From the NCBI RefSeq assembly GCF_000582535.1, contig NZ_CP006932.1:625102-657101 (forward strand): a stretch of 32,000 nt of DNA, written 5' to 3'. The notes beneath the pieces were generated by a model, which saw only the letters and a list, made by a program, of their open reading frames with translations, was not told where the DNA came from and did no database searches. This document shows, one piece after another, positions 1 to 30,849 of this stretch. Within the stretch, counting starts at the first letter, position 1. Every line of letters starts with the position of its first letter. The translations under genes were made by a program, and so were the position numbers. This DNA is from Candidatus Saccharimonadota bacterium. GTDB taxonomy: Bacteria; Bacillota_I; Bacilli_A; Mycoplasmatales; Hepatoplasmataceae.

Positions 1-2031
1 AATTTTAGAAAATACATATTGAGTGTTAGTATCTAAATTATTTTGTAAAAATTCTAGTTGATAATTCTGTGTTCCATTAATTACACCATTTGAGATAACA
101 TTTAAAGTAACAAAAGAGGAATTATATATATTCTCGTTTTGATCAATTAATCAAATTCCATTATTTACATCATATTGCGTGAAATTTGTTTCATTTTCAT
201 TTGGTTTCAAATTATCAATTTCAATATTAAATTCAAATGATGTTGTGGTAATTGAATTTTCTATAATAAAAATAGAATTTTCTTTAATTATTGGTGTTGT
301 TTTTTCTGTTTGAAAATACATAGGATCTTGATCAATGGTATATTTATATTCACCATTTTCATAAAAATATTGAATTGAATCAATTTGATAATTTGTTTCT
401 GAATTTAAATCTGTTAGTGTAATTTCATAGGAATCATCAATTACAAATTCTTGCGAATTATAAATATTTTGATCTAAATCAGTATAATTTACTTTAATTT
501 TTCGTTCAGAAGAAGTGTAATCTAATAAATTAAATTCTTCACCATTTTGACTAAAATCTAATAAAATTGTTACATCTTCTTGATTTGGATCTAAAATTTG
601 ATAATTGGAAATTAAGTAATCAGAATCAGAAGAAGGAAATATTGAAAATATTGAACTAAATTCCTTTAAATTGGAATTATCATAATAATTTGTTAATTGA
701 TAATTAGAATTATCACCACAACCATATAAAATATCACTTTCTCCATCATTATTTAAATCAGCTAATAAATAACTATTTTTAGAACCAAAATAAAAATCTT
801 TTAATTTAAAATTATTAGTATTAAAAATTAATTGAGGAAAATAAATTCCATTTTCATTTAAATTATAATTCCCAAGTTGACCATATTTATTTGATCCTCA
901 AATATAAAGACTATCTGCATATTGATCATTATTTTGATCAATTAGCACACCCGAATTATATAAACTAATTGATAAATCAATTATATTTCCGTTTCAATTA
1001 TCTTGTCCTTGTGGTGTTATTTTTTGTGGAAATAAAGAATTATTTGTTGTTCCATTTCCCAGTTGGCCATTACTATTATCTCCTCATATATAAATATTAT
1101 CACCATAATTATCAGAATCTATATCATCTATAATAATTGAAATATTATTTGCACTTGCTTCTAAATCAATTATATTTCCGTTTCAATTATCTTGTCCTTG
1201 TGGTGTTATTTTTTGTGGAAATAAAGAATTATTTGTTGTTCCATTTCCAAGTTGGCCATTACTATTATCTCCTCAAGTATAAATGGTATCACCATAATTA
1301 TCTTGATCAGTATCTATTAAAACAGAAGAAAAATATTCCCCTAAGGCAATATCAACAATATTTCCTCCTCAATTATTTTTTTCTTTTGGAGTTACTTTTG
1401 TTGGAATAGATATAGTTCCTCCTATTGTTCCATTTCCAATTTGGCCTTTGCTATTATCTCCTCATATATATAATGTATCAGCATACCCATCATTATTAGT
1501 ATCAACAGAAATTGCTGTATTAGTATATGATAAATCTAAATCAATAATCTCTCCTTTTTTATTATTTTTAGAAGAATAAGAAATTACAGGAAATAAAATA
1601 TTATTTTCACTATCATTTATTTGATTTGAATTATTATCTCCTCACACATATAATGTATCTCCATAATTATCATTATCGGTATCAACTAAAACAGACGAAT
1701 TATATCCGTCAAGCGATAAATCAACAATATTTCCATTTCAATCTTCTTGATTTTTTGGAGTTATCAAAATAGGTTTTGCGATATTTACATTTTCAGAACC
1801 ATTTCCAATTTGACCATATTGATTATCTCCTCACATATAAAGAGTATCTGCATAATTATCATTATCGGTATCAATAATAATTCCAGAATGATAATATCCT
1901 GCATCACCACTTATAATGTTATTTTGATCATAAAAATCAGAATTAATATTTTTATTGTTAAAGTTTATTTTAAAAATGCTTAAATTTAGAAACAAAAAAG
2001 GAAGCATCAAAAAAGCTACAAATTTTCTCAT
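1..2031 (-). CDS. Secreted RCC1-like 7-bladed beta-propeller protein with a C-terminal non-repeat domain; partial, C-terminus runs off the window start
   Basis: ATG at 2031. The frame stays open to position 1: 677 codons with no TAA/TAG, checked triplet by triplet, with several TGA=Trp. N-terminus MRKFVAFLMLPFLFLNLSIF looks like a signal peptide. Seven repeats of about 62 aa carry H-S-G...D-x-D-x-D-x-Y-A-D-T-L-Y-x-W-G-x-N-x-x-G-Q-x-G-N-G. The W of each WG is a TGA, which is why the track stops at ...ADTLYM. Confidence 0.8.
973..1275 (-). repeat. Intragenic direct repeat: two 114-bp copies (973-1086 and 1162-1275), 113/114 identical, offset 189 bp (63 codons, one propeller blade)
   Basis: Direct comparison of the two stretches shows a single mismatch (c at 1060, a at 1249). 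Both encode WGDNSNGQLGNGTTNNSLFPQKITPQGQDNWNGNIIDL. The other blades are much more diverged at nucleotide level. Confidence 0.9.
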
Positions 2032-2054
2032 AATAAATCTCTTAAAGAAAATAA

Positions 2055-2084
2055 AAATTTAAAAAATTTAAATTTTTTAAATTT
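2055..2084. promoter_or_regulatory. 30-nt perfect palindrome aaatttaaaaaatttaaattttttaaattt in the divergent intergenic region between the propeller gene and metG
   Basis: The sequence equals its own reverse complement. It lies between divergent starts at 2031 (-) and 2175 (+). It is pure A/T, so chance occurrence is not negligible. Confidence 0.4.
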
Positions 2085-2162: not shown

Positions 2163-3655
<1,493 letters not shown>

Positions 3656-3659
<4 letters not shown>

Positions 3660-4567
3660 TTAAACTCTAAATTTGTATCAATTAATTTAACTTTGCTGAA
3701 ATCAATTTTATTTAAATTTGCAGATTTTAATTTTACTGATTTAAATTCTGCTCCTTCTAAATTTGCTTTTGCAAGATTTGCATAACTAAGATCAACATTT
3801 TCTAGTCTTGCATTTTTAAAATTCACATAAGCAAGATTTGTATAAGATAAATTAATATTTTTAAGATTAGCTTCACTAAAATCAACAAATTTTAAGTTTG
3901 ATTTATTAAAATTAATATCTTTAAGGTTGGATTTAATAAAACTTGAATAAACTAAATTAGAAGATGATAAATTTACATCATTTAGTCTTGCTTCATTAAA
4001 TAAAGATTTTTTAAGATTGCAATGATCTAAGGAAACTTTATCTAAAATAGATTTATTAAAATTAGAATTAAGTAATCCTAAATAATTTATTTTTACTTCT
4101 TTAAAATTTGCTTTTGTAAAATTAACTTTTACAAAATTTTCATTTAAAAAACTAAATAAAAATTTTTTATTATTTATTTCTACATTATTAAATTTTGCAT
4201 CAGTAAAATTAACTTTTGTTAATCTTACTTTTTTTAAGTTTACATCAGTAAGACTTGATTTATTAAATTTTGCATCAGTAAAATTAACTTTTACAAAATT
4301 TGTTTTTATCAAATTTGTATTAATAAAATTAGAATCATTAAGATTTGATTTTAAAAAATTTGCTTCTTTTATATTTGAATCTTCCAAATTTGCTTCTTTT
4401 AAATTTGTTTTTTTAAAAATTGAAAAATCTAAATTTGCTCTACTTAAATTAATTTTGTTCAAATTAGATTTTAAAAAAACTGAACCTTGTAAATTCTTTT
4501 CAGAAAAATTTACTCCTGTTAAATTTTTTTTCTTTAATTCTGTTTTATTAATATTATTATTATCCAT
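3656..4567 (-). CDS. Pentapeptide-repeat protein (303 aa), almost entirely A(D/N)LxX-type repeats; predicted right-handed quadrilateral beta-helix
   Basis: Intact ORF in the track. It contains about 55 consecutive pentapeptides (ANLEDSNIKEANFLKSNLNDSNFINTNLIKTNFVKVNFTDAKF...) and has no signal peptide. An AAGGA RBS sits 5 nt upstream of the ATG. The ATG lies 11 nt after the helicase stop. The 3' end overlaps the metG stop by 4 nt (convergent). Confidence 0.9.
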
Positions 4568-4578
4568 ATTTTTCCTTA

Positions 4579-7500
4579 TTAATTATTTTTGATTAAATTT
4601 TCAATATTTTTTAATTCTTGTTTTTGATTATTAAATCAATTGTTTATTCAAACACGATAGAATTTATATCCTCTTTCATTTAAAAAATCTTGTTTTGAAA
4701 TATCTCTTTTTCGGACAGATTTATAAGAATTTTTGATTATTTCATCTGTTTCGATCAAAAGACTTACATTATTATCTTGGTCGTAAATTAAAAAATCAAT
4801 ATTATATCCATAATTATCATCTTGATTTGCTACATTTAAATTATATTTATTTGTTATTTTTTTTAATTCAAAATAAAAATCTTTTTCAAAATTTGATTTA
4901 AATTCTTTTAATTTAAATCTTTCATTTAATGATAAATTATTATTTAATTCCATACAGTATTTTAAAAATCTATAAAGTATATATATTCCACTTTCAAGAT
5001 TGTGTTTATGTAAATTATTACGAATAAAAAAATTTTCAAAATCTATTTGTTTTAATGAAGTTACTACATACATTTTTAATCTTGATCTTGTAATTGCTAC
5101 ATTAATTCTATTTATTCCTCCTTCTTGATTAATTGGTCCAAAATTAAAAAGAACTTTTCCTTCTTCATTTTTTCCATATAAAGTAGAAAAAATAATAATA
5201 TCTCTTTCATCTCCTTGCACATTTTCAATGTTCTTTACAAATAAATTAACATCTCTACTATTTATTCAATTTGCAAATTCAAGATCAGAAAAACCAATAC
5301 TTGCAATTTGTTCTAAAATATATTTTTCTTGTCTTGAATTCATTGTAATTATTCCAATTGATTTATCTTTAAATTTTTCTGCATTTTTAATTGAAATAAG
5401 AATTTCAATAATCTTATCTGATTCTTTTTTATTCAAACTATTTTTATATAATGGATCATTTATTTGATAATATTCAATTGGTTGATAATCTATATTTTTA
5501 TTATTTTTAGTAATAAAAGTAAGATTACTATTATAAAAAATTTTATTAGAATATTCAATTAATTCCTTATAATCAGAACGATAATGATGTTCCAACATTA
5601 TATGAGGAAATTTTGCTTTTGCATAAGTTAATAAAGATAATTTATTATCTATTAAATTATCATCTTCATATTTTTCAAGTTCTTCTGTTGTATTTCTAGA
5701 AATAAAAAAATTTGTTGGTGATAATTGTTTTTCGTCTCCCAAAATTACAACTTTTTTAGATCTTTCTATTGAAGGTAAACTTCTCTCAATAAACATTTGT
5801 GAAGCTTCATCAAAAATTACTAAATCAAATTGATCTTCTAATGTAAAAATACTTGAAATTGTTTCAGGATTTAATAATCAAATTTTATATAAATTTTTGA
5901 AATCTTGTGCTTCGTTTTGTAAAAATACTTTTACTCCTCATTTTTTCTTAACATTAAAAATTATTCTTTTAAATTGATCACTTGTTTTTCTAAAATTAAT
6001 TCAAAAATTCATTGCAAGATAATATTTTGCAATTTTGCTAAATTTATCAATTTTATCTTTTCTTAAATTTAAAAAATCCTTGTAATTATCTTTTCATTTA
6101 AAAACTTGTTCTTCAATTTTAAATAAAAAGTCAAATTTATTTATTCTTTCACGAAAGATTTTAAATTCAATAATTTCTAATAATTTGTCATATTTTATTT
6201 TATTTTTCTTAGTAAAATCTAAAAATTCTTTTAAAAAATAGAATTGACCATCAGTAAAATTTTTTATTATTTGAAATTCTTTAAAACTTAAATTTAAGTT
6301 AGCTTCCAGATTTTTATATTTTGTTATTAAATTTTTTTGTTCTTCTAGATTTTTATTAAATAAATTATTATATTTTAAAATAATTTTATTTTTTAAAAGA
6401 TCATAATCTTTTATTTCATTAAAAGACTTTTTAAGAATAATAATCATTTTAGCAATACTTTGTTCTACTTGTAATTCTTTTTTTTGATTTCCATATTTTC
6501 GATCATATTTAATTTTATTAATCAAAAATTCCTTCTTTGCTAAATCAAAATCACTTTTTAAATTTTTATATTCTAATTTAAAATTATCATTTTCTAGTAA
6601 ATATTTAGAAAATAATTTTTCCTTAAAATCATTTTTTAACAGTGAAAAAAAATATTTTTTCAAAATAGGATGAATTTTCGAAAAATAAATTAAATCATGA
6701 GAATAGGTAAACAATTTTTCAAAAAGATCTAATGAATGAGATGCGACAAAAGAATTAAGTTTATCATTTTCAAAATATTTTAATATTTCGTCATATCTAG
6801 AATCATTTATATTTTTTCACAAATCATTCCAAATAAGTTTTAAATTTTTTTCTTCTAAAATTAATTCTTCTTTTTTAATATCAATTAAACTATTAAAGTA
6901 ATCAGATACTTCTGCATTATTTTTGATTACAAAAGAAGAACCATATTTTCTTGTTATTTTCTCTCTTAATTCAATAATTTTATTAATTTTTAAAGCAGAA
7001 TGATTTTTTAATAAAAATTTTATTTCATCTAAAAAAATACTAAAATTATTTTTTTTTGATCCTTCTTTTAAAATAAAGGAATTTATTTTTTCATTATCAA
7101 TTTTCAATTTTAAAAAATTATCAAAATTCTTAAATTTTCCATAATGTTCTTCCATTATTTCTAAGATTTTTTTATTTTCAATTGAAGGGATATTTTTATG
7201 AAAATCAATTAAATCCATTTCTTCAAGGATATTAATAATTTTTTGTGATAAAATATCTAATTTATTTATTTCATCTAATAATGATTTGTTATCAATAAAA
7301 TTTACTTCTTCTTGTTCTAAAATTTCTTTGCTAGTTTCATAAGAATGATTTATTTGTTCATAAAATTCTGATTTATTGTTTATATCAGTAAGATAAAAAG
7401 CAAATCTGTTTAATTTTTTTAATCTTTTATAAATAACATCCAAAGCAGCTCTTTTTTCCGAAACAATTGCCACTCTTTTATTTTTTAAAATTGCATCATA

Positions 7501-8640
7501 AATAATTGAAAGAATAGTTTGTGATTTTCCTGTTCCGGGAGGTCCTCAGATAACTAAATTATCAATATCTTTATCATTAATTTTTTTAAGTGCTAAAAAT
7601 TGTTGATCATTTAAGTTATCAACATAAAATATTTTTTTTTCATCTCGATTATAATTATTTTTTTGGGAATATTGATTATTATCAAAAAAATCTAAATTTT
7701 TATTATCATCTTTTTTAATATTTGTTGTTGTACTATATTTTTTTAATTGTTCAGTAGAATATCCACTTTCTAATATTAAATTTAGATCTCTTTTAATTGC
7801 ATTATCATATTTATCAAAAAAACCTATTGTATAAGTTTTTTCTATTGAAAAATTAAAATTAAATTTAATAATTTTTTCATAATTTTTAAACTCAATTACT
7901 TCATCATGATAATTTAAAAAATATTTATCAATTAATTTTTTATCTTTTTTAAAATTTTTAAATAATAATTTAATATTTTCTAAGAAACTTTTCTCAAGAT
8001 TATAATAATAATCATCTATTTTTAAAAAATTTTCTATAATAAAATTATTAGTTAATATATCTCTTGTATTATCAAAATTCATTATAACTTTATGATTAGA
8101 ATGATCAAATTTTAAAAAAATTGGAATTAAAAAAATTGGTGATCTTACAGGAATAATTTTATTTCCATTATTAAAATTTTTAAGAAAATAATAGGGTACA
8201 AAATAAAATGTTGCATATCCTATTTCATTTTTTATTTTTTGATTTTCTTTTTCAAGATTATTAAATTGTAAAAAATTTTTTTCATCAATACTTTTTTTGA
8301 AATTAGAATTTTTATTTTGTTTTTTAAGATAAATTTTTTTATTATTTTTTAAATAGTAAAAGTTAAAATTTTTTATTGAAAAAGTAGCATTTTCTAAATT
8401 TGTTAATTTTAAATTTAATTTTAAATCTTTAATATCATTATTTAGAAAATAATTAATTTTTTCTAATTGCTCTTGCTCAATATTATAAATGGAAAAATTA
8501 TAATTTGTGCTCTTCGAAGTTCATATATTACGGTTTCTTTTGCTTAAATTTGTTAATTTTTTTTGAAAATTTTGTAATTCAAACTCAAATTTTTTTGTAA
8601 TAGGAAATCGTTTTATATTAACCTTTTCTACATTTTTCAT
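4579..8640 (-). CDS. Large SF1 (Upf1/DNA2-like) helicase, 1353 aa, with a DUF4011-like N-terminal region and a C-terminal PD-(D/E)xK / DUF559-Vsr-like endonuclease domain
   Basis: Five track fragments (4648-5220, 5266-5796, 6094-6714, 6817-7473, 7546-8082) and the region 8083-8640 are all in one frame. Every junction was checked and interrupted only by TGA. ATG at 8640 has an AGGAG RBS. The 'stop' at 4648 is also TGA, and the true TAA-TAA is at 4579. Motifs: SPIFLIPIFL (DUF4011-like), Walker A VIWGPPGTGKSQ, motif II FDLVIFDEASQM, VQGDERDIIIFS, INVAITRSR. The C-terminus has YNIDFLIYD...LLIETDE....RD...FL...GYKFYRVW. A K/E/N-rich coiled-coil-like insert of about 450 aa lies between Walker A and motif II. 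Confidence 0.85.
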
Positions 8641-8772
8641 TAAATTTTTTTCTCCTCTAAATCTACAGAAAATATTTAAAAATAAATAACTATTTAATAA
8701 TCTTAAGTTAAAATTATTATATATTTTTTGAAATATATCTTATAATTTACGAATTATAATAAAAATAAATTA

Positions 8773-8778
8773 TATAAT
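8773..8778 (+). promoter_or_regulatory. Candidate -10 box (TATAAT) 7 nt upstream of the 8786 ATG, with no Shine-Dalgarno in between; possible leaderless transcript
   Basis: The sequence reads tatataatttcaaaaATG. There is no purine-rich SD. TATAAT-like hexamers are common in such AT-rich DNA, so this is weak. Confidence 0.3.
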
Positions 8779-8785
8779 TTCAAAA

Positions 8786-9505
8786 ATGAAAAAAGAACAA
8801 TTAGAATTTATTAAAAAAGAAAATTATGAATATTATTTAAGATTAAAAACAAAAATTGAAGAAAATTATACACCTAGCAAAATTATTAAATATGCAAATT
8901 TTTCATCTGCTTTTTTCTATTATCTTGGATATGTAATTCTTATTACATTATTTCAAAATGCAGCTGCTCTTGCTAGCTCTAGAAAAAGAAATTTTAATAA
9001 TTCTTTAATATATGCTTTATTAGGTTTTAATATTTTTTTCTTTTTATATTTAGGTGAAAATAATAAATATAAAAAATATTATCAAAAAGAACTTGAAAAA
9101 ATTGAAATACCAGAGCAAATAAAAATAAAAATTAATAATCAAAAATTATTAAAAAAAATAACAGAAAAAGATTTCGAATATATCAAAAGAGAAAAATTAT
9201 TTAATGTTAATTATCCCAATAATAAAAATTTAATAGGTTTTGTATATGGTTCAAGTATTAGATCTAAAAGTTTATTTAAAGATATACATGCAAATATCGA
9301 GAATATAAGCGGAGGAAAAATAAACACATATAATATTTTATTAAATGAAGCACGAGAAGAGGCAATTGAAAAAATGATAAAAGATGCAATATTAAAGTAT
9401 GGTAGTTTTGAAGGCAAAGCTATCTATAACATTAGATTATCTACATCACAAATATCAATGGGAGCAAGTGAAATTTTAGTTTATGGAACTCTTGTATATG
9501 AATAA
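8786..9505 (+). CDS. Membrane-anchored YbjQ/UPF0145 (DUF74)-domain protein (239 aa)
   Basis: Intact ORF ending in TAA. Two hydrophobic helices are present (FSSAFFYYLGYVILITLF, LIYALLGFNIFFFLYLG). The C-terminal ~105 aa match the YbjQ pattern: GFVYGSSIRSKSLFKDI..NIENISGGKI..Y..LL.EAREEAIEKM...A...GA.AI.NIRL.....SMGASEILVYGTLV. Confidence 0.8.
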   Translation: MKKEQLEFIKKENYEYYLRLKTKIEENYTPSKIIKYANFSSAFFYYLGYVILITLFQNAAALASSRKRNFNNSLIYALLGFNIFFFLYLGENNKYKKYYQKELEKIEIPEQIKIKINNQKLLKKITEKDFEYIKREKLFNVNYPNNKNLIGFVYGSSIRSKSLFKDIHANIENISGGKINTYNILLNEAREEAIEKMIKDAILKYGSFEGKAIYNIRLSTSQISMGASEILVYGTLVYE

Positions 9506-9512
9506 TAAAAAA

Positions 9513-11279
9513 TTACTGAATAAAAATAACAGCAAATTTTTTATTATTTCTTTCCATTTTATCAACTAGTTCTTTTATTTTACTATCATCCACATAATCT
9601 TCTTGTTCAAATTGTTCAAAATTATTTAAACCTTTTTCTCCGATTTTTTTATAAAGTTGAGCTAATGAACTTATTGGTCTAAATTCAAAATAAGTTTCGT
9701 AAATTTGACTTGGAATATATTCTTTATTATTGTTATAATAAAGAATTTTTTTAGACTCTTTAAAAATATTTTCTTCAAACTCTTCTTTTAAATATTCTTC
9801 AATTCCAAATACAATTTGTAATAATTTTAAAGTTTCTTTTTTAGTTATGTTTGCTTTAATATCTTTTTCTGTACGATTTAAAAAATGAATTCTTGTATTT
9901 CCAATATTATCTCTTTCAAAAATATTTACTTTAAAATTTTTATCATATAAAAAAGGAGAATGAGTTGCAAATACAAAATAGATATTTTTAAAAATATCTT
10001 CATTTTCAGAAATTAAATTTTTAAGATATTTTTTTAATTCTATTTGTAATGGTATTGAAAGATTATTTTCTGGTTCATCAACCATTATAATTTTCACATT
10101 TTTTGGATCTTGATAAATTATTGAATTAATAATAAAAATAAAATCTAAAAAAGATTTAGTTCCATCACTACTATCAATTCCAGTTTTATTTCCTATTAAT
10201 CAATTTTTCTTAGAATCAAAATTTAAAATTATTTTATTATTTAAAACATTTACTTTTAAATTAAAATCAATAAATTGAAATTTCTCTAAAATTTTATTTA
10301 TTTTAGATGTTATTCTTGATTCAATTTCTTTTCTTTTTTCATTTTTAAAATTTCCAGAAGGCATCTGATAATAAATTTTTAATTCTTCTTTATTTGGATA
10401 AAGAAAATTAAATATTTTATTTATTTTTGCTTTTTCTGAAAATGAGCTATCACTATTTATTTTTTCAAACAAATAACTTAAATTATAAATATATTCTAAA
10501 TTTCCATTTTTTAATGCACTTTTAATATAAATAATTTGCGGTTTTTTTGTTAATGTTTGTGATATTTTTAAAAAACTATTAAAAATTATTTCTGATGTTA
10601 TATGAATTCTATTATTATTAATGTTAATATAACTAAAATCTGTTACCTTTTCAAATTTTCCATATTTAGCAAAAGAAATAACACTTTGAATTTTGCTATA
10701 GATTTTATTTAATAAAGTTGAATTTTTTAAGCTATTTTCATAATCTTTTATGTCATTATAAAAATTTTTATAAAAATTATCATTATTGGGATTTTTTAGA
10801 TAATCAACTACAATTTTTTTATAAATTGAATTTTCATCAAGTGAATATAAATAATTATTTCCATTTGAATCAGAACCTATTGTTCTTCCATTATTACGAA
10901 AAAAATTCATATATTTATTCTTTATTTCATTTGAAAATAAATTATTTAAATTTCTCTCGAGATCATTTAATTCTTCTTCTGAAAATTTATAGTTTAAAAT
11001 TACTTTTGAAACTATATCTTCTTCACTTTCTAATTTATAATTTATTCTTTCGCTTCCTTCAATTTTTCTTAAAAATTTGGTTTTATTATTTTCATTATTT
11101 TCATTGATAAAATTAATTCCTTCTAAAAAGGATGTTTTACCGGAAGAATTAATTCCCAATAATAAATTAACATTATTACTATATAAATTAACAATTTGTT
11201 TGTTAAAAATACTTTTAATTCCTTCTATTTGAAAAATCATTCTATTTTCTTCAATATTCATAAAATATAAATTCTCCAT
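9513..11279 (-). CDS. ABC-type / OLD-like AAA ATPase (AAA_15/AAA_21-like), 588 aa
   Basis: Track fragments 9513-10097 and 10200-11279 are in frame and joined through TGA at 10200-10202 (...FDSKKNWLIGNKTGIDSSDGTKSFLDF...KIIMVDEPENNLS). Motifs: Walker A GINSSGKTS, signature-like SSDGTKS, Walker B IIMVDEPE, H-loop FATHSPFL. A long helical insert lies between the lobes. The real start may be the internal MIFQIEG (11240). Confidence 0.8.
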
Positions 11280-11360
11280 TTCTTCTAAATTCTATTTAAT
11301 TTAATTAAATTTATATTGTCTTTTAAATTATATATAATTTAATAAATTGAGGGGTTATAA

Positions 11361-12752
11361 ATGAAAAAATATTATGTAGGAATTCTAATTCCATTGTTAG
11401 GTGTTATGCCAATAAATAAAAATTTAATTAATAAAAATGAAGAAAATGCTTTTGAAAATCAACAAATTATTGATATTTCAGCAGGAGGACATCACTCCGG
11501 TACTATAATTGATACAGATAATAATGGTTATGCAGATACCCTTTATATGTGAGGAAATAATTACGTAGGCCAAATAGGAAATGGAAGATCTGGAGGGATT
11601 GTTGAATCTCCAGAAAAAATTGATTTTGATTGAAATGGAAATTTAATTAATTTAGAACTTGGTGTAATTCATTCTGGATTAACAGTTGATAGTGATTATG
11701 ATGGTTATGCAGATACATTATATATGTGAGGATATAATTTTGATGGAGAAATTGGGAATGGAACATGAGGAGATCAAAACATATCTAAAATTCCTGAAAA
11801 AATAACACCACAAGGACAAGATGATTGAGGGGGAAATATAATTGATTTATCTTTATCTGCATTAAACAGTGGAGTTACTATTGATACTGATTATGATGGA
11901 TATGCTGATACATTATATATGTGAGGAAAAGATAATGTAGGACAAATAGGAAATGGTTCTTCTGATAATTTAATGAAAATATATCCAACATTAGTATTTC
12001 CTGAAATTGATGATTGAAATGGTAATTTAATTGATTTAAATCTTGATGGATATCATTCTGGATTAACAGTAGATAGTGATTATGATGGTTATGCTGATAC
12101 ATTATATATGTGAGGAGATAATGGAGATGGTCAAATAGGAAATAACACTTTTGATATTATTTATTCTCCTGAAATTATAAATCCAGTTGATAGTAATTGA
12201 AATGGAAATATAATTGATTTTGATTTAGGGGAAAATAGCACAGGAGTTACTATTGATACTGATTATAATGGATATGCAGATACATTATATATTTGAGGTA
12301 ATAATTTCTATGGACAAACAGGAAATGGAATTAGTGGATATGATTATGATAATTTTCCTACTCCTACAAAAACAGAATATGATTTTAAAGGAAATTTAAT
12401 TGACTTATCATTAGGTGGATCACATGTAAGTATAACAATTGATAGTAATTATGATGGTTATGCTGATACACTTTATGTTTGAGGATATAATAACGAAGGA
12501 CAAATTGGAAATAATAAAGAGGGAGTTAGTGAATTAGAAGATACTCCGATTATAATTACTCCTGTTGATCAAATTAATTGATCAGGAAATATTGTTGAAT
12601 TATCATTAGGTTTTAATACAACAATGATTTCTGTAGATCAAAATAATGATCAAATAGCAGATTCAATTTGAATGTGAGGACAAAATACTTTTTCAGAAGC
12701 TGGACAAGATGGATCAATTAGTAAAGTATTAACACCACAAAAATTAATATAA
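11361..12752 (+). CDS. Secreted RCC1-like 7-bladed beta-propeller protein (463 aa), paralogue of the 1-2031 gene
   Basis: ATG at 11361 follows a GAGGGG RBS. The frame was verified open to TAA at 12750-12752, with 16 in-frame TGA codons. The hydrophobic N-terminus is MKKYYVGILIPLLGVMPI. Seven blades each carry D-x-D-x-(D/N)-G-Y-A-D-T-L-Y-x-W-G-x-N-x-x-G-Q-x-G-N. Confidence 0.85.
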
Positions 12753-15550: not shown

Positions 15551-16483
15551 TTAAGAATATTTATTAAAAAAATCTAGACTTAAAAGATATTTTTCTTTTA
15601 AGGACAATACATCTTGACAAATTTCTAAAAGCTTATTATCTGTAATCATTCTTGAATAAAATTTACTTTTTAATTTGTCTTTTAAATTATTAATATTAAT
15701 AATAATAAGTTCATCTGAAATATTATTTTTCAAATGAGGATTTAACAATTTAAAAACATAATGATAAATTGCAACTTGTCTTCAATAATCAAAATTATCA
15801 CCCTCGGATGATGTTTTAAGATCACAAATATGAATCATTTTTGTATCTTTATTTATAAGTAAAAAATCAATTTCTCCTGTAAAAATTCCATCAGGATGAT
15901 AAAATTTCAAATTATGGCCAATTACAACAAAATTATTTTGATCTAAATGATTTAAAAATTCCAAAACTTCTGTAGATTGTGTGGAAATAGGTATACTTTC
16001 TTCATTTTCTAAATAATTTACAATATCACTTTCAACTTTTTTTCCATAGTCTATTGATTCTTGTAATTTAATTTTTCCTAAAATTTTAAGAGTTTGATTA
16101 TAAATTGTTTGTTTAGTAAACATTTTTATTTTTTTTTGAATTAAATCTAATTCATATAAAATTCTTTTACCTTTTTCAGAATTTCAATTTATTCAATTTC
16201 AACCAAAATTATTTACCATATCATTTAAATCAATTTCAAATTTTTGTTCTCTTTTTATTTGATTTAATTTATATTCTCCTAATAATGGAAGAATATAAGG
16301 TTCATTAAATTTATTCAAAAATTCAGATAAACTAGAATTACTAGGAATATTTAAAAATTCATTACTTTGTTCAAGATAATAAAAATCTAATTTTTTATAT
16401 GGTTGATATAATTTGTCTTTTTTTATTAATTTTAATTTGATTTTTTTCTGTAATTCAGGATAATAATATCTAAAGTTTTTCAT
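15551..16483 (-). CDS. PD-(D/E)xK nuclease-fold protein, RecB/Cas4-like motif set (310 aa)
   Basis: Fragments 15551-15748, 15782-16123 and 16199-16483 are in one frame, with junctions interrupted only by TGA. The motif order is GEIDFLLIN...IHICDLKTS (D...D-x-K) followed by W-R-Q-V-A-I-Y (QxxxY). The ATG directly abuts the rsmI stop. Confidence 0.6.
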
Positions 16484-20872: not shown

Positions 20873-20950
20873 TTTAATCGATAATTTATTGTTTAAATAT
20901 ATTAATTATTATAAAACTTATTAATTAATAATTAATAAATATAAACAAAA

Positions 20951-21024
20951 AGTCGCACATGACACTTCCCGATGTGGCTGCTTTGTTTCCAACCTGACCA
21001 AATTACAGGGTTATCATTGCGACT
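20951..21024 (-). ncRNA. ffs: Small (4.5S-type) signal recognition particle RNA, about 74 nt
   Basis: The minus-strand RNA is AGUCGCAAUGAUAACCCUGUAAUUUGGUCAGGUUGGAAACAAAGCAGCCACAUCGGGAAGUGUCAUGUGCGACU. The 5' AGUCGCA/AUGA pairs with the 3' UCAU/UGCGACU. It has the conserved domain IV GGUCAGGU...GGAA...AGCAGCC, is the most GC-rich patch in the window, and sits directly upstream of dnaX as in Bacillus. Confidence 0.85.
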
Positions 21025-21046
21025 ATAAAATTATAACATTTATTAT

Positions 21047-27843: not shown

Positions 27844-30800
27844 TTAAGATTCTTTTTTTGCTTTATGTTGAATTATTACATGTTTTATAAGTTCCGTCGT
27901 CATCGTAAACATAGCTGAAAACACTCAATAAAGAGCTAGAAGGACGGGAACAATTAATCCCATAAAAACAAATACACCGATCATTATATTTTGTGTTTTA
28001 TTTTGTTTTTTCATTGCTTTTTTTGTTTGCTCATCTATTCTTTTAATTCCTTTTCGTTTATTTGAAAGCATTCTTGGTAATTTACTTGATAAACCTTGAG
28101 CAAAACCAACAGCAATACCAACAAATAAATAAGCAAAGAATAAACTACCAACACTAAACATTCCCGAAATAGAAGAAATAGAAAATGAAAATTGACCAAC
28201 AGAAATTATTTTATAAACAGGAAGAGCAGAAATAATAATCCAAATAGAAAGAAATATCGGCATCGTAACAAAAATCGTTCCCAAAGAAGCAAATGGATTA
28301 ACATTATTTTTTCGATAAAGTGCCATTACTTCTTGTTGTTTACGTGCTTTCATTTGTTTATTTTTTTTATCATATTGCTGATATTTTGCATTTATCTGAG
28401 CAACTTGTGTTTGTACTTCTTGCATCTTAGATTGGTTTTTATTTGATCCAAAAGACATCGCATATCCTAGTCCTCTTAAAAGAAAGGTAATAATAAATAT
28501 TCCTAAAATAACTCCCCAAACAGCACCAACAGGGAAAACAGATTGAATTATAATTGATAATTGTGCAAGCGGTCAAACAAAAAGACCATACATTGGACCA
28601 TATGCGGGATCTCACGCATCTTTTCAATCTCCTAAATCATCAGTAAATATTTCATGATTAGAATTAAGTCCATTACCTTCGGCTTGATTTAATATTTGGT
28701 AAAGAGAAGCAACAATCCCAAAATTAGCAGTTGTTTCAACTAATGGGTTAATTGAAGCTGTTTCTGATTCTGTTGTAAAAGTTGTACTTATACCTATAAA
28801 AGGTGTATAAAATTGGATATCTCCACTTAAAATACTTTTTTCAGAAAGATCACTAATTTCATTTCCTTCATTATCTATGTATTTAAATTCATAACCAATA
28901 TTAATGTATTGATTATAATCAATTAAATAATTAGCAATTAATTCACCATTTTCTTCTCTAAATAAATCATTAAAACTATTTGCAAAATCATTACTATTTG
29001 CATAATATAAAAATGAATTAGGGTCAAAATTAGTTTCAGCACCAGATTTATTTGAAGCTAATTCTATTAATTGTCAATCACCATTATCATCTTCTTCCAT
29101 AAATGCTCATCCCGAAGCATCAGTACGATTTGCTTGTCCTGCTTTTGTTCCTTCGATTCAATCAGAAGATCTTAAAACATCAACATTTTGATATGTTGTA
29201 TATTCTTCATCATCAGTTGAATCATAATCAAAATTACTTTCGTATGTTGTCTGTCCATTATATGTTTCATTTTCATAATTATATCCAGTGATTAATTGCA
29301 TTGATCTTTGACTAGGATAAAAAACTTCAGAAGGATCTGAAACACTTTTTGAATTAATAACATCATAAGATGTTCCTACAATTAAATTAACAGACTGTAA
29401 ATTTTGTCAAATTCCATTTGTTGAATTTAAAACATAAGGAGAATTTAAGAAATTAAATCCAATTGTATAATCAACTTTTTCTCCATTTGGTGGACCACTA
29501 TCTTCATAAAATAAATAACTAATAATACCATCAACAGTTCTCTCAACATTATCAGGAATAGTAATATCTTCAATTGTTTCATCAACATTACTATAATCTA
29601 AACTATAGTTTATTTCTTGTTCAAAATCATATTGATAATTTTCTGTTAAAATTGAAAAATTATCTGTAATAGAATTAAATTGACCATTATTATTAGTAGA
29701 AACATAATAAGCTAAAATATTTGTATAAAATTTAACTTCACTTTCATAAAGATCATATTTATCTTGATTTATTTCTTCTACAGTTTCATCTTGATCTTCA
29801 ATTATTTGATGTGAATAAGCAATACCATTAACTGGAGCTCAATTTAATGGATTTATTAAATCAGATGAATTAACATTACCTGTTTGCTCATAACTATTAA
29901 TAAATTGATCTTCTGAAGAATTATTTAAATCAGAAAAATCAAATAATGGACCAGTATAGTAGGCAAATCCTCTTTGAATATTTGTATAATAATCATCACC
30001 ATTAACAATTCCATCACCATTACTATCAATTGCATTTAATTCATCATCATAAGAATAAGCTTGAATATAAGAAAGATATTGATCACTATATGTTTGATTG
30101 CTTGTATTTCCTGCTAAATAAGCATAAAATTCTATTCCATCTATTTTTTGATCATCATTCCCATAAGGATTTGTATCAGCATTATAAATATCATAATCTT
30201 CTAAATTAAAATTACTATCATTTAATGCATATTGATAAAATTGACTTTTTACATCACTTGAAAAATAATCAAGATTAAAAGGCATAATTAAATATTGATT
30301 ATTTATTAAATCAACATTTGTTCAATCATAATCTAAAAAGGCAGTAGAATAATAAGTACTAAAAGAAAGATTAGCAACAGAAGATAATAAAGAAATTTGA
30401 TAATCAGCAATATTTTCTCCAGGAGTAGTGAAGAAATTATAATCAATATCATCAGGATCAACATTATCATTATTTATTCCTAATAAATAATTATAGTTAG
30501 GACGATAGACTTCAAAAGGTAATAAAAAATTATCTTCTTCTAAATCATCTGTAAAAGGATTATCACCCTCTGCGACAATTTGATAAGAAAAGGTTGATTT
30601 TTGTCCTTTATACATATTAGGTACAACTGATTGTTTATTACCATAAAATTCAAGTCCCCTTGAAACTTGTTGAGTTGTTGTATGAATAAATTCAGCAGCA
30701 CAACCTCAAAGTGTAACTACTGTTAAAAATGAAAATAAAATTCACTTACTATATTTTCTAATTAATTTAAAAATTTTTGAAAAAGAAAAATCACCAGATT

Positions 30801-30849
30801 CATCTGATTTTTTAACTTCTTCGTAAAATGAGTGATTACCTTTTGCCAT
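27844..30849 (-). CDS. yidC: Membrane protein insertase YidC with a ~680-aa extracytoplasmic N-terminal extension (1001 aa total); probable lipoprotein
   Basis: Fragments 27925-28458, 29839-30285 and 30322-30615 are all in one frame. I checked every codon in 27844-27927, 28459-29838, 30286-30321 and 30616-30849: no TAA/TAG, many TGA. The N-terminus is MAKGNHSFYEEVKKSDESGDFSFSKIFKLIRKYSKWILFSFLTVVTLWGC (TM plus lipobox-like LWGC). The C-terminal ~260 aa form the YidC core (YGPMYGLFVWPLAQL..., KMQEVQ..., ALYRKNNVNPF, basic tail). The true TAA is at 27844. Confidence 0.8.

What the first reader, a model, noticed from the sequence alone, without database searches (positions are those of the whole stretch)
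3656..8640. Two-gene operon: giant SF1 helicase-endonuclease fusion translationally coupled to an all-pentapeptide-repeat (DNA-mimic fold) protein
Seen in sequence:
- A single 1353-aa ORF is visible only under table 4. It combines a DUF4011-like N-terminus (SPIFLIPIFL), a Upf1/DNA2-type helicase core (GPPGTGKSQ, DEASQM, QGDERD, ITRSR) split by a ~450-aa coiled-coil-like insert, and a C-terminal D...E-x-D / GYxxxR(V/F)W module typical of DUF559/Vsr-like PD-(D/E)xK nucleases.
- Its TAA is followed 11 nt later, with an AAGGA RBS in the gap, by a 303-aa protein that is pentapeptide repeats from end to end.

Established knowledge: pentapeptide-repeat proteins such as Qnr, MfpA and AlbG fold as DNA-shaped beta-helices and act as DNA mimics. 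As I recall it, the DUF4011 plus SF1 helicase plus Vsr-like nuclease architecture is the one reported for the single-gene anti-phage system called Hhe.

Inference: coupling such a helicase-nuclease to a dedicated DNA mimic has, to my knowledge, not been described. The mimic could act as an immunity or antitoxin-like cap on the nuclease. It could also be a decoy that senses phage anti-DNA-mimic or DNA-binding factors, or a partner that targets gyrase. A streamlined Mollicute genome spending about 5 kb on this pair argues for strong selection.
Basis: partly seen in the sequence, partly recalled or inferred. Interest (0 to 1): 0.82.

Follow-up and report, generated by a model that had tools for sequence, protein, structure and literature searches.

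The report
Helicase-nuclease gene with pentapeptide-repeat partner
A tiny isopod-gut bacterium (Candidatus Hepatoplasma) keeps a large defence-type helicase-nuclease gene followed by a rod-shaped repeat protein that sits next to it only in this genus; the pairing is real, but a working link is unproven and the 'DNA mimic' idea does not fit.

Summary
On the minus strand under table 4 lie a 1353-aa ORF (8640..4579, 10 in-frame TGA) and, 11 nt later, a 303-aa all-pentapeptide-repeat protein (4567..3656).

The large protein is an intact Upf1-like SF1B helicase with an all-helical ~495-aa insert and a C-terminal MTES_1575/Vsr-like nuclease. It aligns end to end with PADLOC candidate PDC-S37. It shares only the motor and nuclease with Hhe, and it falls far below the NCBIfam Hhe and ProA cut-offs.

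The organism is a Candidatus Hepatoplasma. The gene pair and its whole neighbourhood are syntenic in four Hepatoplasma lineages. None of 109 helicase homologue loci scanned elsewhere carries a PRP, and the PRP has no close relative outside the genus.

- The 11-nt gap equals the genome's median same-strand gap.
- The PRP is strongly basic (net +18 to +29, pI 9.7-10.1), unlike the acidic DNA-mimic PRPs.

Best reading: a chromosomally fixed defence-type helicase-nuclease with a genus-specific, co-transcribed β-helix accessory of unproven role. This is a new variant of a known kind, of moderate interest.

The parts
8641..8785 (.). Divergent intergenic region between the helicase start (8640, minus) and the YbjQ-domain gene start (8786, plus). 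It contains a promoter-like TTGAAA-16-TATTAT at 8783..8756 (minus) and a GAGGAG upstream of the ATG.
   Evidence: The promoter scan is uninformative at this GC content (55 sites found against 64.9 expected).
4579..8640 (-). Helicase-nuclease gene, 1353 aa plus stop, with 10 TGA=Trp codons. PDC-S37/Hhe-superfamily protein.
7636..8640 (-). N-terminal DUF4011-like domain (aa 1-335, including SPIFLIPIFL 167-176).
   Evidence: Family alignment invariants G141, P168, N198, G273. 23 of 26 aligned homologues hit PF13195. The window protein has no direct Pfam hit.
7369..7617 (-). RecA1 N-terminal half with Walker A GPPGTGKS (aa 342-424).
   Evidence: AAA_11 stretch 342-424. Invariant G366-S373.
5881..7368 (-). 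Insert of about 495 aa splitting the motor (aa 425-920). It is the least conserved part within the genus.
   Evidence: Only 22-52% invariant per 50-aa block, against 62-80% in most motor blocks. The equivalent region of modelled relative P0010 is all α-helical with 30-40-residue helices.
5041..5880 (-). Rest of RecA1 plus RecA2 (aa 921-1200): DEASQ 944-948, GDEKQL 968-973, QGDERD 1142-1147, ITRSR 1183-1187.
   Evidence: AAA_12 1010-1195. Invariant columns. Motif positions. Upf1/Senataxin/IGHMBP2/DNA2-like fold of family member P0010.
4597..4890 (-). C-terminal MTES_1575 / DUF559 / Vsr-like PD-(D/E)xK nuclease (aa 1251-1348): D1282, E1297-T-D1299, R1312-D1313, G1324, R1329, W1331.
   Evidence: Pfam 8.2e-15. 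Motif alignment. PDB 3hrl weak hit. Aligns to IE1727-C-D1729 of Klebsiella Hhe.
4568..4578 (-). 11-nt intergenic gap TAAGGAAAAAT with an AAGGA Shine-Dalgarno-like motif.
   Evidence: Gaps of 8-16 nt in the other lineages; AAGGA is kept only in H. scabrum.
3656..4567 (-). Pentapeptide-repeat protein gene, 303 aa plus stop. 58 repeats, consensus [V/S/A]-N-[L/F]-[K/N/S]-[K/D/N], basic (net +18, pI 9.7). Its last 4 nt overlap the convergent metS (2163..3659, plus).
4118..4177 (-). Loop and register break of the β-helix (aa 131-150). I131-N-N-K-K135, F140 and E143 are invariant in four lineages.
   Evidence: Low pLDDT of 65-79. Invariant columns. Register shift.

Best explanation
Identity of the large protein. 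This is a chromosomally fixed member of the DUF4011 / Upf1-like SF1B helicase / MTES_1575 (Vsr-like) nuclease superfamily. It is closest to PADLOC candidate PDC-S37 and is a cousin of the antiphage protein Hhe. It has been retained as a syntenic gene across the genus Candidatus Hepatoplasma.

Inferred mechanism:
- The N-terminal DUF4011 domain and the fast-evolving helical insert engage or sense a nucleic-acid substrate.
- The ATP-driven motor translocates 5'->3'.
- The C-terminal PD-(D/E)xK nuclease (D1282, E1297, D1299) cuts DNA.
- The most likely purpose is to restrict foreign DNA (phage, plasmid, ICE).

The partner. In the Hepatoplasma lineage the gene acquired a downstream partner with which it forms an isolated two-gene transcription unit. 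The partner is a 303-aa, 58-repeat, polycationic right-handed β-helix with one conserved protruding loop. I take it to be a lineage-specific accessory subunit. It would be a protein- or nucleic-acid-binding rod that tethers, targets or gates the helicase-nuclease, not an acidic DNA mimic.

Shown: the genes, domains, motif integrity, fold, synteny, genus restriction and charge. Inferred: the defence role, any physical interaction, and the direction of regulation.
For: The helicase-nuclease looks functional. All SF1 motifs and the nuclease acidic residues are intact in four lineages at 61-63% identity.

Family assignment:
- A colinear match to PDC-S37 spans residues 19-1352 against model positions 7-1340 of 1550, E 6.5e-121. 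All 26 aligned family members hit PDC-S37 better than Hhe.
- The Hhe and ProA profiles match the C-terminal part.

Links to defence and mobile elements:
- The C-terminal 416 aa finds relatives on 614 plasmid records. One is Klebsiella hhe, beside two DUF262 genes and IS elements on a conjugative IncF plasmid.
- 27 loci lie on IMG/VR viral contigs.
- One close relative sits next to TraG.
- A Glu-to-Ala nuclease mutant (E1731A) abolishes E. coli Hhe defence (bioRxiv 10.1101/2022.06.16.496414). A Klebsiella Hhe IE1727-C-D motif aligns with IE1297-T-D here. That E1731 is the same Glu was not tested.
- The insert is the fastest-evolving region, as expected of a sensing domain.

The pair:
- It is flanked by opposite-strand genes on both sides, so the PRP must be co-transcribed or driven from inside the helicase gene.
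- A helicase followed by a 301-303-aa PRP at 8-16 nt is seen in three of the four lineages. In the fourth (L086) the contig ends 101 codons into the downstream gene.
- Both genes evolve faster than the neighbouring housekeeping genes: 49-54% and 61-63% identity, against 66-85%.
- The PRP loop INNKK..F..E and the N- and C-terminal coils are invariant.
- PRP domains fused to nuclease domains exist elsewhere: P0125 carries PLDc_2 and P0206 carries HNH_2.
Against: - There is no direct evidence of interaction. No complex could be modelled, because the tool refuses fused sequences and sequences containing TGA codons.
- Adjacency is weak evidence here. The whole trmE-tatD-AAA15-ybjQ-helicase-PRP-metS block is syntenic, and 11 nt is the typical gap.
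- The helicase family works without a PRP everywhere else: 0 of 109 scanned loci carry one, including the nearest table-4 relatives L003 and L004. No partner gene is widely conserved in the family.
- A fixed position in all four lineages, with no island or mobile-element context, is atypical for defence genes. DUF4011 genes are core genes in P. aeruginosa (PMC10250203).
- PDC-S37 is, to my knowledge, only a candidate system.
- The proteome as a whole is basic (pI 8.5-9.8 for neighbouring proteins), so the PRP's charge is partly compositional.
Confidence: 0.42

Rival explanations
1. The PRP is functionally unrelated to the helicase-nuclease. In a compacted 0.6-Mb genome it simply landed, and became fixed, in the slot between the helicase gene and metS. 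It serves some other role, such as binding another protein or nucleic acid.
For: - Tight or overlapping same-strand spacing is the rule even between unrelated housekeeping genes (gaps 7, -1, 10, -11, 0, 5, 11, 12 nt in L001).
- The entire neighbourhood is syntenic.
- Helicase relatives never have a PRP.
- The SD-like AAGGA is not conserved in L002 or L085.
- The PRP has no PADLOC hit.
Against: - The two genes form an isolated two-gene unit bounded by opposite-strand genes. The PRP therefore depends on helicase transcription or on a promoter inside that gene.
- The PRP is found only in the window and at this locus in the DNA examined.
- Both genes show similarly relaxed conservation compared with their neighbours.
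Confidence: 0.33
2. The PRP is a DNA-shaped mimic that caps the nuclease or helicase DNA groove as an immunity or antitoxin factor. Alternatively it acts as a decoy for phage DNA-binding factors, or it targets gyrase as Qnr and MfpA do.
For: - The Rfr β-helix fold is shared with HetL, QnrB1, AlbG and MfpA.
- It is adjacent to a DNA enzyme.
- Aravind and colleagues note that PRPs in conflict systems might affect nucleic acid-protein interactions (PMC7159879).
Against: - Net charge is +18 to +29 and pI 9.7-10.1 in all four lineages. Outward-facing repeat positions carry 43 K/R against 27 D/E. By established knowledge, DNA-mimic PRPs are electronegative.
- NCBIfam scores fall well short of the cut-offs: Qnr 85 against 240, MfpA 49 against 360.
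- It is 303 aa with no C-terminal dimerisation helix.
- Relatives of the helicase, including the closest ones, need no such immunity partner.
Confidence: 0.07
3. The helicase-nuclease is a genome-maintenance enzyme (repair, recombination or replication-conflict resolution) of a reduced genome rather than an immune gene. This holds whatever the PRP does.
For: - It has a fixed syntenic position in four lineages with no presence/absence variation and no island or mobile-element context.
- DUF4011 genes are chromosomal in M. hominis and core genes in P. aeruginosa (PMC12228374 and PMC10250203).
- The nearest relatives are in other table-4, ~20% GC genomes among aminoacyl-tRNA synthetase genes.
- The fold is like DNA2 and Upf1.
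Against: - All the closest named profile families are antiphage (PDC-S37, Hhe, ProA, Mokosh MkoA/C).
- Relatives are frequent on plasmids and viral contigs.
- The M. hominis gene tolerates disruption by an ICE.
- It is less conserved than housekeeping neighbours.
- A weakly AriA/PtuA-like AAA_15 ATPase lies next door.
Confidence: 0.28

Closest known systems
PADLOC candidate PDC-S37 (PDLC05009)
   Same: There is a colinear, near full-length profile match (19-1352 against 7-1340 of 1550, E 6.5e-121, for the 99%-identical P0001; 1.7e-121 for the window protein). All 26 aligned family members hit it best. The domain order is the same.
   Different: PDC-S37 is listed as a single-gene candidate and, to my knowledge, is not experimentally validated. 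The model is about 200 positions longer at its C-terminal end. Here the gene is a fixed core locus with an added PRP partner.
Hhe (E. coli/Klebsiella DUF4011 antiphage protein; NCBIfam NF042953, PADLOC PDLC02194)
   Same: The architecture is shared: DUF4011 N-terminus, split SF1 motor with a large insert, C-terminal Vsr-like nuclease. Identity is 32% over 919-1346 against 1361-1776, and 30% around Walker A. The ExD motif aligns (E1297/D1299 with E1727/D1729).
   Different: Hhe is 1911 aa, with an insert of about 830 aa against about 445 here. The window protein scores 291.6 bits against the 2000-bit cut-off. Hhe is plasmid- or island-borne and solitary, with no PRP.
ProA (NCBIfam NF058533, 'anti-phage protein ProA')
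   Same: It is the best NCBIfam hit (1.3e-110), covering 573-1351 against 995-1704 of 1903.
   Different: It scores 370.9 bits against the 1500-bit cut-off, and the N-terminal 570 residues are unmatched. I could not find the source paper, so nothing can be said about partners or mechanism.
Topoisomerase-protecting DNA-mimic PRPs (Qnr, MfpA, AlbG, McbG)
   Same: They share the right-handed quadrilateral β-helix of pentapeptide repeats. A conserved loop interrupts the helix, loosely recalling the Qnr loops.
   Different: They are acidic, 180-220-aa dimers with a C-terminal helix (established knowledge). This protein is basic, 303 aa, lacks a terminal helix, scores far below the family cut-offs and is not linked to gyrBA, which lie 18 kb away.
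HetL / cyanobacterial Rfr-type PRPs
   Same: HetL is the best structural hit (3du1, E 5e-11) and the best NCBIfam hit (122 bits). The nearest sequence relatives are cyanobacterial PRPs at 26-32% identity.
   Different: It is below the HetL cut-off of 260 bits. The similarity is at repeat level only. The organism, context and charge all differ.
Helicase-plus-restrained-nuclease defence complexes such as Hachiman HamAB
   Same: The concept is shared: a helicase surveys DNA and controls a nuclease effector, with a partner protein modulating activity (PMC12278908 abstract).
   Different: There is no homology. Here the helicase and nuclease are fused in one chain, and the partner is a repeat β-helix of unknown activity. 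This is an analogy only.

Membership tests
Hhe (NF042953 equivalog) | Full-length profile score at or above the curated cut-off (2000 bits) | tested here: not met
   291.6 bits. Only 936-1346 matches model positions 1280-1676 of 1797. BLASTP to Klebsiella Hhe aligns two segments only.
Hhe (NF042953 equivalog) | DUF4011 N-terminal domain | tested here: inconclusive
   The window protein has no PF13195 hit at E<=0.1. It aligns full-length with homologues, 23 of 26 of which hit PF13195. Invariant G141, P168, N198 and G273 are kept.
Hhe (NF042953 equivalog) | Intact SF1 (AAA_11/AAA_12) ATPase motifs | tested here: met
   Walker A 366-373, DEASQ 944-948, GDEKQL 968-973, QGDERD 1142-1147, ITRSR 1183-1187.
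Hhe (NF042953 equivalog) | C-terminal Vsr-like nuclease with the catalytic Glu needed for defence (E1731 in E. coli hhe) | tested here: met
   MTES_1575 8.2e-15. E1297-x-D1299 aligns with E1727-x-D1729 of Klebsiella Hhe. Equivalence to E. coli E1731 is inferred, not checked.
Hhe (NF042953 equivalog) | Confers phage resistance as a single gene | not testable with these tools
   Needs recoded expression and phage challenge.
PDC-S37 (PADLOC candidate) | Colinear full-length match to the PDLC05009 profile | tested here: met
   19-1352 against 7-1340 of 1550, E 6.5e-121 (P0001, 99% identical). Window protein 1.7e-121. No curated cut-off is available.
PDC-S37 (PADLOC candidate) | Stand-alone (single-gene) organisation in defence-island context | tested here: not met
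   Here it is a two-gene unit in a syntenic core locus between ybjQ and metS. Relatives are solo.
ProA (NF058533 equivalog) | Score at or above the curated cut-off (1500 bits) | tested here: not met
   370.9 bits; the match covers 573-1351 only.
Pentapeptide-repeat family (PF00805 / Rfr fold) | Tandem A(D/N)LXX-type repeats forming a right-handed quadrilateral β-helix | tested here: met
   160.8 bits against a cut-off of 20.2, in 8 stretches. 58 repeats in perfect 5-residue register. AF2 pLDDT 92. Foldseek hits to HetL, Qnr, MfpA and AlbG.
DNA-mimic topoisomerase-protecting PRPs (Qnr/MfpA) | Family profile score at or above cut-off | tested here: not met
   Qnr 85.3 against 240. MfpA 49.3 against 360. 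QnrB 41.8 against 460.
DNA-mimic topoisomerase-protecting PRPs (Qnr/MfpA) | Electronegative, DNA-like surface | tested here: not met
   Net +18 to +29 and pI 9.7-10.1 in four orthologues. Outward positions carry K/R 43 against D/E 27.
DNA-mimic topoisomerase-protecting PRPs (Qnr/MfpA) | About 180-220 aa with a C-terminal dimerisation helix | tested here: not met
   303 aa. The model ends in β-coils with only a 3-residue helical turn at 290-292.
DNA-mimic topoisomerase-protecting PRPs (Qnr/MfpA) | Protects gyrase from poisons | not testable with these tools
   Biochemical assay needed.
HetL (NF047416) | Score at or above cut-off (260 bits) | tested here: not met
   122 bits.

The most novel reading that the evidence does not exclude
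The Hepatoplasma PRP is a dedicated second subunit of a PDC-S37/Hhe-type helicase-nuclease. That would make a new two-component variant in which a cationic β-helical rod, through its invariant INNKK loop, tethers the enzyme to nucleic acid or gates the nuclease. It would be the first functional pairing of a pentapeptide-repeat protein with an SF1 helicase-nuclease, fixed as a core gene in a 0.6-Mb symbiont genome.
Probability: 0.25. Interest if true: 0.6.

Novelty: new variant of a known kind. Interest (0 to 1): 0.4.

Why it matters
If the PRP really partners the enzyme, it would give pentapeptide-repeat proteins a role outside gyrase protection. It would also show how a single-gene defence-type helicase-nuclease can recruit a lineage-specific accessory.

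Independently of the PRP, the locus shows something unusual. A roughly 4-kb Hhe/PDC-S37-type gene is kept intact and syntenic across a genus with genomes of about 600 kb. That is uncommon for genes that elsewhere ride on plasmids and viral contigs. It raises the question of whether this family has a genome-maintenance function, or whether even extreme symbionts pay for nuclease-based immunity.

The evidence for a functional link between the two genes is only positional, so the practical value today is as a well-defined, testable candidate.

Tried and rejected
1. Structure of the window helicase. I modelled family member P0010 instead.
2. Structure from an MSA of the four Hepatoplasma PRPs. I used distant PRPs as the alignment.
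3. Complex prediction. No multimer mode is offered, and fused constructs are not admissible.
4. Source of the NCBIfam name 'ProA' and of PDC-S37. Four literature searches found nothing. One apparent 'ProA' hit was the word 'proactively'.
5. Promoter and terminator scan. It was uninformative at 20% GC (55 sites against 64.9 expected, 0 terminators).
6. Neighbour clustering across 86 loci. It was noisy because my table-4/table-11 choice mis-assigned GC-rich loci. It still showed no partner family in more than 6 loci.
7. Protein searches with the PRP. They returned only repeat-level matches and did not return the known Hepatoplasma orthologues. Those libraries evidently lack them, so 'no close homologue' also rests on the metagenome DNA-pattern scan.
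8. The listing of cluster members gave no organism names for the nearest non-Hepatoplasma helicases.
9. Rejected idea: the AAA_15 ATPase as part of the same system. It is absent next to the nearest relatives and is separated from the helicase by an opposite-strand gene.
10. Rejected idea: low-complexity artefact for the PRP. The perfect 5-residue register and the confident β-helix model rule it out.

Full report
**What is in the sequence**

The window is 21.3% GC, and long ORFs appear only under genetic code 4. Both genes of the finding lie on the minus strand.

- The large ORF starts at ATG 8640, preceded by GAGGAG, and ends with TAA at 4581..4579. It is 1353 aa and contains 10 in-frame TGA codons.
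- Eleven nucleotides later (TAAGGAAAAAT) a 303-aa ORF runs 4567..3656. It has no TGA codon.
- Its last four bases overlap the convergent metS (2163..3659).
- Upstream, the helicase gene diverges from a YbjQ-domain gene (8786..9505, plus strand).

The two genes therefore form an isolated two-gene unit.

**Organism**

The helicase has full-length homologues in three other lineages:

| Homologue | Identity | Source |
|---|---|---|
| P0001 | 99% | Logan contig |
| P0002 | 63% | Candidatus Hepatoplasma scabrum |
| P0003 | 61% | Ca. H. crinochetorum |
| P0004 | 61% | a fourth Logan lineage |

The window is therefore from a Hepatoplasma, a Mollicute of the isopod midgut gland with a genome of about 0.6 Mb.

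**The helicase-nuclease**

Pfam finds three domains:
- AAA_11, split into two stretches, the first at 342-424.
- AAA_12 at 1010-1195.
- MTES_1575 at 1251-1348 (E 8e-15).

All SF1 motifs are invariant in a 26-member family alignment: GPPGTGKS 366-373, DEASQ 944-948, GDEKQL 968-973, QGDERD 1142-1147, ITRSR 1183-1187.

The nuclease keeps D1282, E1297-T-D1299, R1312-D1313 and the GY/W..R.W tail in all four Hepatoplasma orthologues. Some distant relatives have lost the acidic pair.

The N-terminus gets no direct DUF4011 hit. It aligns with homologues of which 23 of 26 hit PF13195, and it keeps the invariant G141, P168, N198 and G273.

Between Walker A and motif II lies an insert of about 495 aa (425-920). 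The window protein could not be modelled, because of its length and its TGA codons. The 1197-aa relative P0010 gave a good AlphaFold2 model (pLDDT 84, pTM 0.82). In that model the equivalent insert is entirely α-helical with 30-40-residue helices. The motor resembles Senataxin, Upf1, IGHMBP2, Aquarius and DNA2, so it is SF1B, Upf1-like.

Within the genus the insert is the least conserved part, at 22-52% invariant per 50-aa block. Most blocks of the motor reach 62-80%; the nuclease blocks reach 46% and 68%.

**Which family it belongs to**

- PADLOC's best hit is the candidate PDC-S37. The match is colinear over nearly the whole protein: 19-1352 against 7-1340 of 1550, E 6.5e-121 for the 99%-identical P0001. 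All 26 aligned relatives hit PDC-S37 better than Hhe.
- Hhe matches only the C-terminal motor plus nuclease. The score is 291.6 bits against the NCBIfam cut-off of 2000.
- BLASTP to a 1911-aa Klebsiella plasmid Hhe aligns 919-1346 with 1361-1776 at 32% identity, and the Walker A region at 30%.
- NCBIfam 'anti-phage protein ProA' is the best NCBIfam hit, but at 370.9 bits against a cut-off of 1500. I could not find its source paper.

The protein is thus a member of the Hhe/PDC-S37/ProA superfamily, closest to PDC-S37. It is not Hhe.

A Glu-to-Ala mutant (E1731A) of E. coli hhe abolishes defence (bioRxiv 10.1101/2022.06.16.496414). In the Klebsiella Hhe the IE1727-C-D1729 motif aligns with IE1297-T-D1299 here. 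That E1731 is the same Glu is inferred, not tested.

**The PRP**

- Pfam Pentapeptide scores 4e-48.
- The sequence is 58 pentapeptides in perfect register, at 6-131 and 145-300. The consensus is [V/S/A]-N-[L/F]-[K/N/S]-[K/D/N].
- A single register break occurs at residues 131-150. This loop has low pLDDT, but I131-N-N-K-K135, F140 and E143 are invariant in four lineages.
- AlphaFold2 gives one continuous β-helix (pLDDT 92, pTM 0.88).
- The nearest structures are HetL, designed solenoids, Np275/276, QnrB1, AlbG and MfpA.
- NCBIfam scores are far below every cut-off: HetL 122 against 260, Qnr 85 against 240, MfpA 49 against 360. There is no PADLOC hit.

The protein is polycationic in all four lineages, with net charge +18 to +29 and pI 9.7-10.1. 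The outward-facing repeat positions carry 43 K/R against 27 D/E.

The neighbouring proteins are also basic (pI 8.5-9.8), so part of this is AT-driven lysine bias. Even so, a DNA mimic must be electronegative. That is established knowledge for MfpA and Qnr.

**Is the pairing conserved, and is it meaningful?**

In three of the four Hepatoplasma lineages the helicase is followed after 8-16 nt by a 301-303-aa PRP orthologue at 49-54% identity. In the fourth (L086) the contig ends 101 codons into the downstream gene.

The whole block trmE-tatD-AAA15-ybjQ-helicase-PRP-metS is equally syntenic, however. In addition, same-strand gaps in the annotated H. scabrum locus have a median of about 10 nt: 7, -1, 10, -11, 0, 58, 46, 44, 5, 144, 11, -26, 12, 29. 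The 11-nt 'coupling' is therefore ordinary for this genome. The AAGGA motif is absent from two lineages.

Outside the genus no PRP accompanies a helicase homologue:
- 80 genome loci and the two nearest relatives (L003, L004; both ~20% GC, table 4) have none within ±7 kb.
- None of 27 viral-contig loci has one.
- The Klebsiella hhe locus has none.
- No other partner gene recurs in more than six loci.

The PRP also lacks close relatives:
- The best protein hits are 26-39% identical and share only repeat-level similarity.
- A metagenome DNA-pattern scan found only 25-34% matches, none beside a helicase.
- Caveat: the protein libraries did not return even the known Hepatoplasma orthologues, so their coverage of this protein is incomplete.

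The PRP is therefore a genus-specific addition to a family that otherwise works alone.

**Defence or housekeeping?**

For defence:
- Every named profile relative is antiphage or a defence candidate.
- The C-terminal 416 aa finds relatives on 614 plasmid records. One is hhe, beside two DUF262 genes and IS elements on a conjugative plasmid.
- Relatives occur on viral contigs and beside TraG.
- The M. hominis DUF4011 gene tolerates disruption by an ICE (PMC12228374).
- The gene evolves faster than its housekeeping neighbours: 61-63% identity against 66-85%.

For a core, maintenance-type role:
- It has a fixed syntenic position with no island context in four lineages.
- DUF4011 genes are core genes in P. 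aeruginosa (PMC10250203).

I favour a defence or anti-mobile-element role retained as a core gene, at modest confidence.

**Verdict**

The most likely picture is an active PDC-S37/Hhe-type SF1B helicase-nuclease, fixed in the Hepatoplasma chromosome and co-transcribed with a genus-specific, basic, loop-bearing β-helix. That β-helix may be an accessory subunit (tether, targeting or gating). It could equally be an unrelated gene that landed in a compact genome.

The 'dedicated DNA mimic' reading is the least compatible with the data. This is a new variant of a known kind. Interest is moderate (0.4), because the only evidence for a functional link between the two genes is positional.

Noticed in passing
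window 9513-11291 (-): A 588-aa AAA_15/AAA_21 ABC-type ATPase has weak PADLOC matches to AriA (1e-12), HEC-01A and PtuA. It is conserved at 59-60% identity immediately upstream (beyond ybjQ) in all four Hepatoplasma lineages. It could be a second defence-like gene. It is absent beside the nearest non-Hepatoplasma helicase relatives.
   Followed up: partly
window 8786-9505 (+): A 239-aa protein has a hydrophobic N-terminal half and a C-terminal YbjQ_1 domain (9.5e-20). It is divergent from the helicase gene. It is present in three lineages but not called in H. crinochetorum.
   Followed up: partly
window 11361-12752 (+) and 1-2058 (-): Two RCC1-repeat (β-propeller) proteins start with hydrophobic, signal-peptide-like N-termini, judged by eye from the translations. 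The slot between tatD and the AAA_15 gene is variable: an RCC1 gene here, nothing in H. scabrum, and a different 729-aa gene in H. crinochetorum. They may be surface or host-interaction proteins.
   Followed up: partly
window 27844-30849 (-): A 1001-aa YidC carries the 60KD_IMP domain only at 781-988. It is preceded by an acidic, N/D/Y-rich extension of about 750 aa after one TM segment. It sits between rnpA and a recF-like gene, where dnaA-dnaN would usually lie.
   Followed up: no
window 15551-16483 (-): A 310-aa protein has no Pfam hit yet is among the most conserved in the region (83-85% identity across the genus). It contains a PD-(D/E)xK-like pattern (GEIDFLL ... ICDLKTS), judged by eye.
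   Followed up: no
window 20937-21033 (-): A bacterial small SRP RNA (Rfam RF00169, 57.7 bits) lies between serS and dnaX.
   Followed up: no
window 4187-4346 (PRP gene): A 75-nt direct duplication (2.1 copies, 76% match) encodes the repeated KVNFTDAKFN segment. This is evidence of internal repeat expansion in the PRP gene. Period-15 and period-30 arrays run throughout the gene.
   Followed up: partly
P0125, P0206 (distant PRP hits): Some cyanobacterial-type PRPs are fused to nuclease-type domains (PF13091 PLDc_2; PF13391 HNH_2). PRP-nuclease associations therefore exist elsewhere as fusions.
   Followed up: no
L001 14077-14988; L002 14065-14973: The PRP orthologues of H. scabrum and H. crinochetorum each contain one TGA (Trp) codon, whereas the window's PRP has none. 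In the locus tables they are listed without any Pfam hit despite being strong Pentapeptide matches. Neither PRP protein search returned them.
   Followed up: partly
L004 6570-7982: The nearest 1265-aa helicase relative (P0006; table-4, 22% GC contig) lies directly downstream of a TraG/T4SS coupling-protein gene. This suggests carriage on an integrative conjugative element.
   Followed up: no
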